Below, in pieces: positions 54,996 through 57,270 of a stretch of 64,000 bases of DNA. Source of the stretch: the human T2T-CHM13v2.0 reference genome, Homo sapiens; the NCBI GenBank assembly GCA_009914755.4, contig CP086569.2, forward strand, positions 18,176,001 through 18,240,000, written 5' to 3'. Every line of letters starts with the position of its first letter. Positions within the stretch are counted from its first letter, which is position 1. The notes under the pieces are model-generated. The model had not been told where the DNA came from, ran no database searches, and saw only the letters and a list, made by a program, of their open reading frames with translations. Position numbers and translations under genes: made by a program.

Positions 54996-55287
54996 GGAGT
55001 GCAGGCTAGATGTGGTGGCTCACACCTATAATCCCAGAACTTTGGGGGGCCAAGGCAGGAGGATTGCTTAAGACCATGACTTTGAGACCAGCCTGGGCAA
55101 TTTAGCAAGAGCTCTCTCTCTCTACAAATACTAAAAATAATTTAAAAATATATATTACTTGGGCACGGTGGTGCATGCCTGCAGTCCCAGCTACTCCAAA
55201 GGCTGCAGGAGAAGAATATTTTGAGCCCTGGAGGTCAAGGCTGCAAGAATCTATGATCACAGCACTTTTCTGAATCCTGGACAAGTG
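54996..55287 (+). mobile_element. Old Alu (AluJ-like), sense, whose A-tail merges into the purine-rich tract
   Basis: The sequence reads 'ggctagatgtggtggctcacacctataatcccagaactttggggggccaaggcaggaggattgcttaagaccatgactttgagaccagcctgggcaatttagcaagag...cttgggcacggtggtgcatgcctgcagtcccagctactccaaaggctgcaggagaagaatattttgagccctggaggtcaaggctgcaag'. Confidence 0.85.
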
Positions 55288-57270
55288 AGAAAAGAAAGAA
55301 AGAAAGAAAGAAAGAAAGAAAGAAAGAAAGAAAGAAAGAAAGAAAGAAAGAAAGAAAGAAAGAGAGAGAGAGAGAGAGAGAGAGAGAGAGAGAGAGAAAG
55401 AAAGAAAGAAAGAAAGAAAGAAAGAAAGAAAGAAAGAAAGAAAGAAAGAAAAAAGAGAGGGAGGGAGAGAGTATGAGGAAGGGAGGGAGGGAGTATGAGG
55501 AAGGGAGGGAGGGAGCAAGGAAGGAAGGAGAAAGGAGGGAGGAAAGGAAGGAGGGAGGGAGGAGGGAAGGAAGGAAGAAAGGGAGGAAGGGAGGAAGGAA
55601 GGAAAAGAAGAAGGAAGAAAGAAAAGAAAAAGGACAGAAAGAAAATGAGGTAGAAAGAAAGAAGGAAAGAAAGGAAGAAAGAAAGGGTGTGAGGGCGGGA
55701 GGGAGGAAGGAAGAAAAGAAGGAGAGAGGAGGGAGGCAGGAAAGAAAGGAGGGAGGGAGGAGGGAAGGAAGGAAGGAAAGAAAGAAAGAAGGGAGGGAAA
55801 GAGAGAGGAAGAAAGAAAGAAGAAAGAGAGGGAGGGAGGGAAGGAAGGAAAGAAGGAAGGAAGGGAAGGAAGGAAGGGAGAGAGAGAAAGAAAAAGAAGA
55901 AACTAAGAAAGAAAGAAATGAGGAAAGAAAGAAGGAGAGAGGAAGAGAGGGGAGGGAAGAAGGGAGGAGGGAAGGAAGGAAGGAGTAAGAGAGGAGAGAG
56001 GGTAGGAAGAAGGGAAGAAGGAGGGAAGGGAGGGAGGGAGGAGGGAGAGAATAGAGGGAGAGGGAGGGAGGGAGGCAGGGAGGGAGGGAGGAAGGAAGGG
56101 AAGGAAGGAAAGAAAGACAGAAAGAAATAGAAAGAAAGTGAGAAAGAAAAAAGAGAGAGAGAAAGAAAGAACAAAAGAAAGAAAGAAAGTGAGAGAGAGG
56201 GAGGGAGGGAGAAAGGGAGGGAAAGAGAGAAAGAGGAGAAAGAGAGAGGGAGAGAGAGGGAGGGAGGGAAGGAAGGAAGTAAAAGAAGAAAAGAGAAAGA
56301 AAGAAAAGAAAAAAGAGGGAAAGAAAGAAAGATGAAAGAAAGAATGAAAGAGAAACAAAGAAGGGAAGAAAGAGATTGTGAGGAAGGGAGAGAGGGAGGG
56401 AGGGAGCAAGGAAGGAGAGAGGAGGGAGGAAAGGAAGGAGGGAGGGAGGAGGGAAGGAAGGAAGACAGAGAGGGAGGAAAAGAAGAAGGGAGAAAGAAAG
56501 AAAAGAATAAAGAAGGAAAGAAAATGAGAAAGAAAGAAAAAGAAAGAAAGTAAGTGAGGGAGGGAAGAAGGAAGGAGAGAGGAGGGAGGGAGGAAAGGAA
56601 GGAGAGAGGGAAGAAGGAGAGAGGGAGGGAGGAGGGAAGGAAGGGAGGGAGGGAAAGAGAGGAAGAAGGAAAGAAAGAAAGAAAAAAGAAGAGAGAATGA
56701 AGGAAGGGAGGAAAAGAGAGAGAGAAAGTAAAACAAGAAAGTGAGAGAGAAAGAAAGAAGGAAATAAAGAAAGAGAAAGAAAGGAAGAAAGAGAGAGAGC
56801 GAGGGAGGGAGGGAGGAGGGAAGTAAGGAAGGAGAGAAGAGGGAGGGAAGGAAGGAGGGAGGAATGAGGGAAGGAAGGGAGGGAAGGAGGGAGGGATGGA
56901 GGGAGGGAGAAGGAGAGAGAACAGAGGGAGGGGGAAGGGAGGGAGGCGGGGGGGAGGAAGGAAGGAAGGGAAGGAAGAAAAGAAAGAGAGAAAAAGAGAG
57001 AAAGAAAGAGAAAAAAGAAAAAGAAGAAAGAAAAAGAATGAGAAAGGGAAAAGAAAGAAGAAAGACAAAGACATAGAGAAAGAGAAGAAAGAAAGAAAGA
57101 AAGAAAGAAAGAAAGAAAGAAAGAAAGAAAGAAAGAAAGAAAGACAAAAAAGAGGAAGGAAGAAAGGAAGAAAGAAGAAGGAAGGAAGAGGGAAAGAAGG
57201 AAGAGGGAAGGAAGGAAGGAGAGAAGGAAGGAAGGAAGGGAGGGAGGGAGGGAGGGAGGGGAGGGAGAAA
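55288..57270. repeat. ~2.0 kb polypurine/polypyrimidine low-complexity tract built from (GAAA)n, (GA)n, (GGAA)n, (GGGA)n and (GAAAGA)n
   Basis: The plus strand here is essentially devoid of C and T for about 2 kb ('gaaagaaagaaag...gagagagagag...gggagggagggag...'). The tract generates the 414-771 aa stop-free minus-strand ORFs (poly S/L/F/P) and the plus-strand poly-E/K/R/G ORFs, none of them credible. Confidence 0.97.

What the first reader, a model, noticed from the sequence alone, without database searches (positions are those of the whole stretch)
54996..57270. 2-kb purine-only tract seeded at an Alu tail, with extreme H-DNA and instability potential
From the 3' end of an AluJ the plus strand is composed only of G and A for about 2 kb. 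It mixes (GAAA)n, (GA)14, (GGAA)n and (GGGA)n blocks with many mirror symmetries. Long GAA/GAAA-type tracts expanded from Alu poly-A tails are a known route to large unstable repeats (for example the FXN GAA repeat originated in an Alu). A tract this long is a strong candidate for length polymorphism, for replication or transcription blockage and for heterochromatin nucleation. It is also the reason for the spurious 689 and 771 aa ORFs.
Basis: partly seen in the sequence, partly recalled or inferred. Interest (0 to 1): 0.5.

Follow-up and report, generated by a model that had tools for sequence, protein, structure and literature searches.

The report
Alu-tail purine-rich repeat tract, 2 kb
A real but ordinary kind of sequence: a 2-kb, 97%-purine compound microsatellite next to an old Alu's tail, with only a few stretches pure enough to form unusual DNA structures.

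Summary
The tract is real. Window 55287-57271 (1,985 bp) is 97.3% A+G on the + strand and abuts an AluJ body (55004-55290). It is not purine-only: 53 pyrimidines interrupt it, and the longest pure run is 185 bp. The two long minus-strand ORFs (689 and 771 aa) are confirmed artefacts of a C/T-only strand.

It is best read as a degenerate compound microsatellite (GAAA, GA, GGAA, GGGA) derived from a retroelement A-tail. Two smaller tracts in the same window, one behind an Alu end and one behind an L1 end, show the same order. The interior carries about a third of the Alu body's transversion load, and both edges are almost pure. No target-site duplication could be recovered.

New here: the tract holds about 2.3 copies of an ~880-bp higher-order unit, so part of its length came from a large tandem duplication.

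"Extreme H-DNA" is overstated. Only two blocks are long pure mirror repeats: 145 bp at 55307-55451 and 59 bp at 57086-57144. The other 15 have arms of 10-18 nt.

Polymorphism, fork stalling and heterochromatin could not be tested. The kind is well known (RFC1 Alu-tail repeats, PKD1 intron 21 tract). Interest is low.

The parts
55004..55290 (+). AluJ body. It is old (about 72% identity to AluJo) and ends at consensus position 273, so the terminal CCCTGTCTC is missing.
   Evidence: 9.2% transversions and 14% transitions against the consensus.
55287..57271 (+). The whole purine-rich tract: 1,985 bp, 97.3% A+G, 53 pyrimidine interruptions, overall 4-nt periodicity.
   Evidence: rotation-canonical tetramers are AAAG 33%, AGGG 23%, AAGG 21% and AGAG 11%; lag-4 identity is 0.74 against 0.48 expected from composition.
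55287..55471 (+). Longest uninterrupted purine run (185 bp). It holds (GAAA)17 at 55294-55361, (GA)18 at 55362-55397 and (GAAA)14 at 55396-55451.
   Evidence: no transversions in this block.
55307..55451 (+). 145-bp perfect homopurine mirror repeat (arms 72 nt, spacer 1). This is the strongest H-DNA candidate in the tract.
55295..56167 (+). Higher-order unit, copy A (about 880 bp).
   Evidence: 348 bits against copy B, compared with 177+-24 (maximum 231) and 187+-38 (maximum 260) in shuffled controls; 8 aligned pyrimidine interruptions against 0.73 expected.
56174..57038 (+). Higher-order unit, copy B. It is collinear with copy A at an offset of about 870-890 bp, with 88% identity in aligned columns.
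   Evidence: the smoothed G-content autocorrelation peaks at lag 870 (r = 0.44).
57041..57271 (+). Partial third copy of the unit: a GAAA array followed by a GGAA/GGGA segment. It ends at the unique 3' flank.
   Evidence: about 80% identity to the starts of copies A and B. This is weak on its own because the sequence is low-complexity.
57086..57144 (+). (GAAA)14 array, which is a 59-bp perfect homopurine mirror repeat (arms 29 nt). Second H-DNA candidate.
57238..57265 (+). (GGGA)5-type G-quadruplex motif at the 3' edge. It is one of 12 G3+N1-7 motifs in the tract.
55235..57304 (-). Spurious 689-aa ORF, 91% F/L/S/P. A C/T-only strand cannot encode a stop codon.
55257..57572 (-). Spurious 771-aa ORF, 87% F/L/S/P, with no Pfam family.

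Best explanation
The tract is a non-coding by-product of mutation. It is a degenerate compound microsatellite, and no evidence points to a function.

Proposed history, in five steps:
1. An AluJ inserted with an A-tail (inferred).
2. A>G changes in the tail created GAAA, then GA, GGAA and GGGA units, which expanded by replication slippage. The motif family and the 4-nt periodicity are shown; the process is inferred from established microsatellite biology.
3. The array grew to several hundred bp of alternating A-rich and G-rich modules (the alternation is shown).
4. A tandem duplication of about 880 bp, followed by a partial third copy, roughly doubled it (collinearity and shared interruptions are shown). 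The likely cause is unequal exchange or template switching between similar modules (inferred).
5. Point substitutions then interrupted the interior, while slippage kept the two edge arrays pure.

Expected consequences, all inferred:
- The pure arrays (GAAA)17, (GA)18 and the two (GAAA)14 should vary in length between individuals.
- The 145-bp and 59-bp pure mirror repeats can fold into H-DNA, and the 12 GGGA-type motifs into G-quadruplexes. Both would happen mainly when the purine strand is the lagging-strand template.
- The interrupted interior contributes little to either structure.
For: - Position and orientation: the tract starts where the AluJ body ends.
- Motif family: AAAG, AGGG, AAGG and AGAG make up 87% of tetramers, and lag-4 identity is 0.74.
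- In-window replicates: a 5'-truncated Alu end (30503-30820) and an L1 3' end (37114-37335) carry smaller tracts with the same order, A-rich then GAAA then GA then GGGA/GGAA. The other roughly 19 Alu 3' ends found in the window have purine tails of 0-70 bp (a crude scan that missed the 30.5-kb Alu).
- Age gradient: transversion density is 9.2% in the Alu body, 3.2% in the tract interior, 0% in the first 185 bp and 0.5% in the last 197 bp.
- Higher-order duplication: 348 bits against shuffled maxima of 231 and 260. Eight aligned pyrimidine interruptions against 0.73 expected (Poisson 1e-6), or 10 against 5.0 within +-4 columns (P = 0.016).
- No hairpin potential: the single strand folds with MFE 0 kcal/mol.
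- Literature on origin: about 15% of the oldest Alu poly-A tails spawned new SSR motifs (PMC7027126). Long mirror repeats arise from STR expansion (PMC12214015). AAAG and GGAA account for 98% of long pure tetramer loci, and AG is the commonest AAAG interruption (PMC13082088).
[quoted passage not shown] G-rich A2G3 forms triplex or G4 and stalls forks, whereas A4G does not (PMC11077069).
Against: - No target-site duplication encloses Alu plus tract.
- The Alu's terminal ~9 nt are absent, so the junction has been remodelled.
- Slippage and conversion can purge interruptions. The lower transversion load therefore does not strictly prove that the tract is younger than the Alu.
- The higher-order signal is moderate: the z-score is 4-7 from only 12 shuffles per control, and the aligner favours matching the rare pyrimidines.
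- No population, cross-species or experimental data could be obtained.
Confidence: 0.78

Rival explanations
1. The purine tract, or most of it, existed before the Alu. The AluJ inserted at its edge, and only the first ~170 bp, (GAAA)17(GA)18(GAAA)14, derives from the Alu tail.
For: - No target-site duplication was found after position 57271.
- The 5' flank of the Alu is itself purine-rich (AGAAAAAGGGAGTGCA). The best weak match to it is AAAAAGAGAG at about 55449-55458, at the end of the pure block.
- There is a sharp change from pure arrays to interrupted G-rich sequence at 55457-55472.
Against: - The weak matches fall in low-complexity sequence and are not significant.
- The tract interior has a lower transversion load (3.2%) than the Alu body (9.2%).
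- The two other tail-derived tracts in the window show the same switch from pure GAAA to G-rich sequence without needing a pre-existing tract.
- There is no purine tract on the 5' side of the Alu.
Confidence: 0.15
2. The tract is a functional element: a cluster of binding sites for GGGAGGG- or GA-binding factors (MAZ-type, GAGA-like, or EWS-FLI1 at GGAA) acting as an insulator or enhancer, or a structural replication-fork barrier kept by selection.
For: - The tract holds 45 GGGAGGG and 35 GGAAGGAA words, against 14 and 6 on the + strand of the remaining 62 kb.
- It holds 12 G4 motifs.
- Long H-motifs are over-represented in the genome (PMC12214015).
Against: - The motif counts follow trivially from the repeat composition.
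- Only one (GGAA)4 run exists, while EWS-FLI1 activity tracks long uninterrupted runs (PMC13082088).
- The setting is an AT-rich (36% GC), L1-rich region with no detected gene.
- No conservation or chromatin data are available.
- Over-representation of H-motifs is explained by expansion bias rather than function (PMC12214015).
Confidence: 0.04
3. Part of the length is an assembly artefact: a mis-assembled or mis-polished low-complexity region, with the ~880-bp duplication coming from a collapsed or expanded assembly.
For: Kilobase-scale GA-rich tracts are hard to sequence and assemble. The two ~880-bp copies are adjacent.
Against: The copies differ at about 12% of aligned columns and by many indels, which is not the near-identity expected of an assembly duplication. 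The interruptions are partly shared and partly private, as expected for an old, real duplication.
Confidence: 0.03

Closest known systems
Microsatellites derived from Alu/L1 poly-A tails (A-rich SSRs born from retroelement tails)
   Same: - The tract sits directly 3' of an Alu, in the Alu's orientation.
- Its motifs are one or a few A>G steps from poly-A.
- About 15% of the oldest Alu tails spawned new motifs (PMC7027126; PMC3812793).
- Two further examples lie in the same window.
   Different: - Its size is far out in the tail of the distribution: 1,985 bp, against a mean old-Alu tail of about 35 bp (PMC7027126) and 0-70 bp for the other Alus in this window.
- It has a higher-order ~880-bp duplication.
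- No target-site duplication could be recovered.
RFC1 (CANVAS) AAAAG/AAAGG/AAGGG repeat in the poly-A tail of an AluSx3
   Same: It is an Alu-tail origin for a kilobase-scale purine-only repeat. G-rich units form H-r triplex or G4 structures and stall forks when the purine strand is the lagging-strand template (PMC8773600; PMC11077069).
   Different: - RFC1 alleles are long arrays of a single pentamer (hundreds to thousands of units). This tract is a mosaic of tetramers and a dimer, with at most 17-18 pure units and 53 interruptions.
- The gene context here is unknown.
- No disease link is known or implied.
PKD1 intron 21 polypyrimidine tract (PyRE)
   Same: [quoted passage not shown] Here there are 1,985 bp with 17 perfect ones, so the density is similar. 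It has both triplex and G4 potential (PMC9142560).
   Different: - The PKD1 tract lies in an intron of a GC-rich, highly transcribed gene and has been tested experimentally.
- This tract is in an AT-rich, L1-rich region and is untested.
- An Alu-tail origin is not claimed for PKD1.
FXN intron 1 GAA repeat
   Same: It is a homopurine mirror repeat that arose inside an Alu. Long pure alleles form H-DNA, block replication and transcription, and become heterochromatic (PMC11667243).
   Different: - The FXN repeat arose in the Alu's middle A-rich linker, not its 3' tail (PMC3812793).
- It is a pure trinucleotide array, pathogenic above 66 units.
- The tract has no (GAA)n run of 3 or more units.
Long AAAG/GGAA tetranucleotide microsatellites catalogued in long-read human data
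   Same: AAAG and GGAA dominate the long pure tetramer loci, and AG is the commonest interruption of AAAG arrays (PMC13082088). This matches the (GAAA)17(GA)18(GAAA)14 block.
   Different: Catalogued extremes are pure arrays, up to 144 AAAG units (PMC13082088). Here the pure arrays are modest (14-17 units), and the length comes from degenerate sequence plus a large duplication.

Membership tests
Retroelement poly-A-tail-derived microsatellite | Starts at the 3' end of an Alu or L1, on the element's sense strand | tested here: met
   The AluJ alignment ends at 55290 (consensus position 273), and the purine run starts at 55287.
Retroelement poly-A-tail-derived microsatellite | Motifs derivable from poly-A by a few substitutions (A-rich purine units) | tested here: met
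   AAAG, AGGG, AAGG and AGAG make up 87% of tetramers.
Retroelement poly-A-tail-derived microsatellite | A target-site duplication brackets element plus tail | tested here: inconclusive
   No copy of the 10-16 nt 5' flank with 2 or fewer mismatches carries its distinguishing TGCA. The best local matches are 7-10 nt of low-complexity sequence.
Retroelement poly-A-tail-derived microsatellite | The orthologous pre-insertion site lacks the tract, or related species carry a shorter tail | not testable with these tools
   No primate genomes are available. Exact-match scans of public contig collections and ORF look-ups returned nothing.
H-DNA-forming motif (homopurine.homopyrimidine mirror repeat) | One strand is all purine across the motif | tested here: met
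   Met for 12 of the 17 mirror repeats, including the 145-bp and 59-bp ones. Not met for the tract as a whole, which has 53 interruptions.
H-DNA-forming motif (homopurine.homopyrimidine mirror repeat) | Mirror symmetry with arms >=10 nt and spacer <8 nt (the non-B DB-type definition used in PMC11879447) | tested here: met
   17 non-overlapping perfect mirror repeats, with arms from 72 down to 10 nt.
H-DNA-forming motif (homopurine.homopyrimidine mirror repeat) | Long enough for a stable structure in cells (stem of about 25 nt or more per PMC12214015; S1-sensitive sites average 202 bp with few interruptions) | tested here: inconclusive
   Only two motifs qualify (arms of 72 and 29 nt). The other 15 have arms of 10-18 nt.
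H-DNA-forming motif (homopurine.homopyrimidine mirror repeat) | Experimental S1/P1 or chemical-probe sensitivity | not testable with these tools
   This needs wet-lab or genome-track data.
G-quadruplex motif | Four or more G3+ runs separated by loops of 1-7 nt | tested here: met
   12 motifs in the tract, out of 16 on the window's + strand, and 111 GGG runs.
Disease-type expandable repeat (FXN GAA, RFC1 AAGGG, UGT2B7 GAAA) | A pure tandem array of one motif above the instability or pathogenic threshold (GAA >66; AAGGG >400; GAAA 63-160; PMC11667243) | tested here: not met
   The longest pure arrays are (GAAA)17, (GA)18 and (GAAA)14. No (GAA)n run of 3 or more units exists.
EWS-FLI1-responsive GGAA microsatellite | Long uninterrupted GGAA run (minimum 4; activity tracks the maximum consecutive length, PMC13082088) | tested here: not met
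   One run reaches 4 units (55763-55778); all others are 3. The bare minimum is reached once, with no long run.
Higher-order tandem duplication (VNTR-like) | Adjacent collinear copies that are more similar than composition explains and share rare variants | tested here: met
   348 bits against shuffled maxima of 231 and 260. Eight aligned shared pyrimidine interruptions against 0.73 expected. Copy-number variation between individuals was not testable.

The most novel reading that the evidence does not exclude
The tract is a kilobase-scale purine-only VNTR. Its ~880-bp higher-order unit would vary in copy number (1, 2, 3 or more copies) among haplotypes. Together with its pure H-DNA and G4 blocks, it would act as an orientation-dependent replication barrier or local fragile site in a late-replicating, L1-rich region. 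That would be an Alu-tail repeat that has moved from microsatellite slippage to macro-scale unequal exchange.
Probability: 0.12. Interest if true: 0.4.

Novelty: new member of a known kind. Interest (0 to 1): 0.2.

Why it matters
Tracts like this are hard to assemble. They generate false ORFs and are likely sites of length variation and of local replication stress.

This one shows the full life history of an Alu-tail repeat in one place. It has pure, presumably still-slipping arrays at both edges, a decayed interior, and a large internal duplication. That makes it a reasonable test locus for two questions in long-read population data: how A-tail microsatellites reach kilobase size, and whether interruptions tame H-DNA and G4 formation.

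It does not reveal a new mechanism, and no gene or phenotype is tied to it here.

Tried and rejected
1. Other alleles or orthologues in public data. Exact-match scans with the unique 3' flank and with an interruption-bearing internal signature found nothing (two metagenome-contig scans; one genome-contig scan). Exact-protein look-ups of the 771-, 151- and 138-aa ORFs also found nothing. Polymorphism therefore could not be tested.
2. Target-site duplication search. Nothing convincing was found.
3. Rfam scan of the whole window: no RNA family.
4. Coding potential. The 771-aa ORF has no Pfam family. The neighbouring ORFs are L1 ORF1, endonuclease and reverse-transcriptase fragments.
5. Hairpin or slipped-strand structure. 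The single strand has MFE 0 kcal/mol, so hairpin-based instability is rejected.
6. Shorter higher-order periods. Offsets of about 100-600 bp scored 110-156 bits, which lies within the shuffled range of 177+-24 bits. They were rejected as noise.
7. EWS-FLI1-type GGAA element and FXN-type GAA repeat. Both were rejected on run lengths.
8. SVA-type (AGAGGG)n origin. This was considered because of the GGGA-rich 3' edge and rejected because the flank is unique sequence, not SVA. That was read and not tested further.
9. Three papers could not be read: Bacolla et al. 2006, Patel et al. 2004 and Matos-Rodrigues et al. 2022 are not held in the library. The bioRxiv version of the last one was used instead.
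Full report
**1. The observation**

The + strand of window 55287-57271 (1,985 bp) contains 1,049 A, 883 G and only 53 C/T, which is 97.3% purine. GC skew and AT skew both stay near +0.9 to +1.0 across it and drop to background on either side. The rest of the window is 51.6% purine, so chance is excluded; the binomial tail underflows below 1e-300.

The statement that the strand is "composed only of G and A" is wrong in detail. 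There are 53 interruptions, and the longest uninterrupted purine run is 185 bp (55287-55471). The next longest are 165, 142, 126 and 118 bp.

The perfect arrays are as follows:
- (GAAA)17 at 55294-55361
- (GA)18 at 55362-55397 (not 14)
- (GAAA)14 at 55396-55451
- (GAAA)14 at 57087-57142
- (GGGA)5 at 57238-57257
- (GGAA)n never exceeds 4 units, and no (GAA)n or (GGA)n run reaches 3 units

Overall the tract keeps a 4-nt periodicity. Lag-4 identity is 0.74 against 0.48 expected from composition, and TRF reports a period-4 array of about 432 copies with 68% matches.

**2. The ORFs**

The 689-aa (55235..57304, minus) and 771-aa (55257..57572, minus) ORFs exist. They are 91% and 87% Phe/Leu/Ser/Pro. 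Those are the only residues that C/T-only codons can encode, and no stop codon can be written without a purine. The 771-aa product matches no Pfam family.

**3. The Alu**

Window 55004-55290 aligns best to AluJo. The local score is 248, against 192 for AluSx and 161 for AluY, at about 72% identity. It carries the AluJ versions of three diagnostic blocks: GGAGGATYGCTTRAG, GGGCAA..TAGCRAGA and GGCTGCA..CTATGATC.

The alignment stops at consensus position 273. The Alu's last ~9 nt (CCCTGTCTC) are missing, and GAAA repeats follow directly. The junction has therefore been remodelled.

No target-site duplication could be recovered. The 10-16 nt before the Alu (…AGAAAAAGGGAGTGCA) have no copy with 2 or fewer mismatches that carries the distinguishing TGCA, either after 57271 or inside the tract. 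The best local matches are 7-10 nt of low-complexity sequence.

**4. Evidence that the tract grew from a retroelement tail**

(a) The same window holds two smaller replicates. A 5'-truncated Alu with an intact …GAGACCCTGTCT end is followed at 30523 by about 150 bp of (GAAA)n, then (GA)n, then GGGA/GGAA. An L1 3' end at ~37140 is followed by an A-tail, then GAAA, then GA, then GGGA/GGAA. The focal tract begins in the same order.

(b) A crude scan found about 20 Alu 3' ends in the window. All except the focal one had purine-rich tails of 0-70 bp (the scan missed the 30.5-kb Alu).

(c) In an A/G-only sequence, every transversion creates a pyrimidine. Transversion density is 3.2% in the interior (55472-57074), 0% in the first 185 bp and 0.5% in the last 197 bp. 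In the Alu body it is about 9.2%. The tract is therefore, on average, younger than the Alu or has been repeatedly homogenised, and its edges are the youngest parts.

(d) The literature agrees:
- About 15% of the oldest Alu poly-A tails spawned new SSR motifs, with a mean tail length of about 35 bp (PMC7027126).
- Retroelement tails are a major source of A-rich microsatellites (PMC3812793).
- AAAG and GGAA account for 98% of tetramer loci with more than 18 pure units, and the commonest interruption of AAAG arrays is AG (PMC13082088).

Origin from this Alu's tail is therefore likely. I put it at about 0.7-0.8, but it is not proven.

**5. A higher-order duplication (new)**

Self-comparison gives one outstanding off-diagonal alignment: 55295-56167 against 56174-57038, at an offset of about 879 bp and 348 bits. 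The next best alignments score 181, 175 and 156 bits.

Twelve block-shuffled versions (50-bp blocks) gave 177+-24 bits (maximum 231). Twelve order-6 Markov versions gave 187+-38 bits (maximum 260). Smoothed G-content autocorrelation peaks at lag 870 (r = 0.44).

A global alignment of the two copies has 88% identity in 819 aligned columns. It places 8 pyrimidine interruptions opposite each other, for example C55516/C56407, T55646/T56525 and C56076/C56947. That compares with 0.73 expected (Poisson about 1e-6). With a +-4-column tolerance the count is 10 against 5.0 expected (P = 0.016). The aligner itself favours matching the rare pyrimidines, so the first figure is optimistic.

The last ~230 bp (57041-57271) aligns at about 80% to the starts of both copies, with a GAAA array followed by a GGAA/GGGA segment. 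The tract is therefore best described as about 2.3 copies of an ~880-bp unit. Each unit is made of alternating A-rich (26-38% G) and G-rich (50-64% G) modules. I give this reading about 0.7. It means that much of the 2 kb came from a large tandem duplication and not only from unit-by-unit slippage.

**6. Structural potential**

With the usual definition (perfect arms >=10 nt, spacer <=8), the tract holds 17 non-overlapping mirror repeats, 12 of them 100% purine, covering 35% of its length. That is about 8.6 per kb. For comparison, the PKD1 intron 21 tract has 23 perfect mirror repeats in 2.5 kb (PMC11667243), and the genome average is about 40 per Mb (PMC11879447).

Only two of the 17 are long: 55307-55451 (arms 72 nt, spacer 1; the (GAAA)n(GA)18(GAAA)n block) and 57086-57144 (arms 29 nt). 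The rest have arms of 10-18 nt.

Published data put this in context:
- H-motif behaviour diverges from other mirror repeats at stems of about 25 nt (PMC12214015).
- The longest H-motif in T2T-CHM13 has 797-nt arms (PMC11879447).

So the 185-bp pure block is a typical, credible H-DNA site. It is not an extreme one, and the interrupted interior adds little.

The tract holds 12 G3+N1-7 motifs, out of 16 on the window's + strand, and 111 GGG runs. G-rich purine repeats such as (A2G3)n form both H-r triplexes and G4s and stall forks when the purine strand is the lagging-strand template, whereas A-rich (A4G)n does not (PMC11077069).

The purine strand cannot form Watson-Crick hairpins; its MFE is 0 kcal/mol. 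Hairpin-type instability is therefore excluded.

**7. What could not be tested**

No comparative or population data could be reached. Two exact-pattern scans of metagenome contigs, one scan of prokaryotic genome contigs, and three exact-ORF look-ups all returned nothing. Length polymorphism, replication or transcription blockage, and heterochromatin nucleation therefore remain inferences.

Polymorphism of the pure arrays is very likely on general grounds. Mutability rises with the length of the perfect segment, and about 30% of de novo STR mutations fall in Alu elements (PMC9743774).

Heterochromatin nucleation is documented for long pure GAA arrays at FXN (PMC11667243). The tract contains none.

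**8. Context**

The window is 36% GC and rich in L1 fragments (ORF1, endonuclease and RT hits). No RNA family and no non-L1 gene was detected, and the genomic location is unknown.

Four strongly R.Y-biased tracts lie at about 30.5, 37.1, 41.4-41.9 and 55.3-57.3 kb. Together they occupy about 4.6% of the window.

**9. Comparison and verdict**

By mechanism and kind, this is a retroelement-tail-derived compound purine microsatellite.
- The best disease-locus analogue is RFC1, an AluSx3-tail purine pentamer (PMC8773600).
- The best structural analogue is the PKD1 intron 21 tract (PMC11667243).
- FXN is a looser analogue. Its GAA repeat arose in the Alu's middle linker (PMC3812793).

The tract fails the defining feature of the disease-type expandable repeats, a long pure single-motif array, and it fails the GGAA-microsatellite criterion of a long uninterrupted run.

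It is a new, unusually large member of a known kind. The only non-routine feature is the ~880-bp higher-order duplication. Interest is low, at about 0.2.

Noticed in passing
window 30503-30820: A 5'-truncated Alu (right arm, with an intact …GAGACCCTGTCT end at ~30522) is followed by about 150 bp of (GAAA)n, then (GA)n, then GGGA/GGAA. It is a ~300-bp miniature of the focal tract and gives spurious minus-strand ORFs of 137 and 134 aa.
   Followed up: partly
window 37114-37335: An L1 3' end is followed by an A-tail that grades into GAAA, GA and then GGGA/GGAA repeats (~200 bp). This shows the same A-rich to G-rich order behind a different retroelement.
   Followed up: partly
window 41375-41875: A polypyrimidine tract of about 450-500 bp lies on the + strand and is built from trinucleotides (CTT/CCT)n. 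That makes it GAA/GGA-type on the minus strand, unlike the tetramer-based focal tract. No retroelement end is obvious next to it. It produces spurious + strand ORFs of 179 and 170 aa.
   Followed up: no
window 30503-57285 (four tracts): Four strongly purine- or pyrimidine-biased tracts occupy about 4.6% of this 64-kb, 36%-GC, L1-rich window. That looks like a high local density. Whether the region is unusually prone to such expansions is unknown.
   Followed up: no
window 54941-54954 and 54988-55001: Two near-identical purine-rich 14-mers, AGAAAAGGGAGTGG and AGAAAAAGGGAGTG, lie 47 bp apart just 5' of the AluJ. The second is the sequence the Alu inserted next to. Their origin (local duplication or chance) was not resolved.
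   Followed up: no
window 54691-54729: A short compound (CA)n / (TACACACACG)n microsatellite lies about 270 bp upstream of the Alu.
   Followed up: no
window 54400-54606; 42133-46841; 51681-52613; 35710-36294: L1 pieces surround the finding:
- an L1 3' end with a short A-tail at ~54400-54606;
- an L1 5' UTR start at ~42133, with endonuclease and RT ORFs downstream;
- an inverted RT fragment at 51681-52613;
- an ORF1 fragment at 35710-36294.
   Followed up: partly
window 55287-55290 (Alu/tract junction): The AluJ lacks its last ~9 consensus bases (CCCTGTCTC), and the GAAA array starts directly after …GAGTGAGA. The Alu at 30.5 kb keeps this end. The repeat has apparently eaten into, or a deletion has removed, the Alu terminus.
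   Followed up: partly
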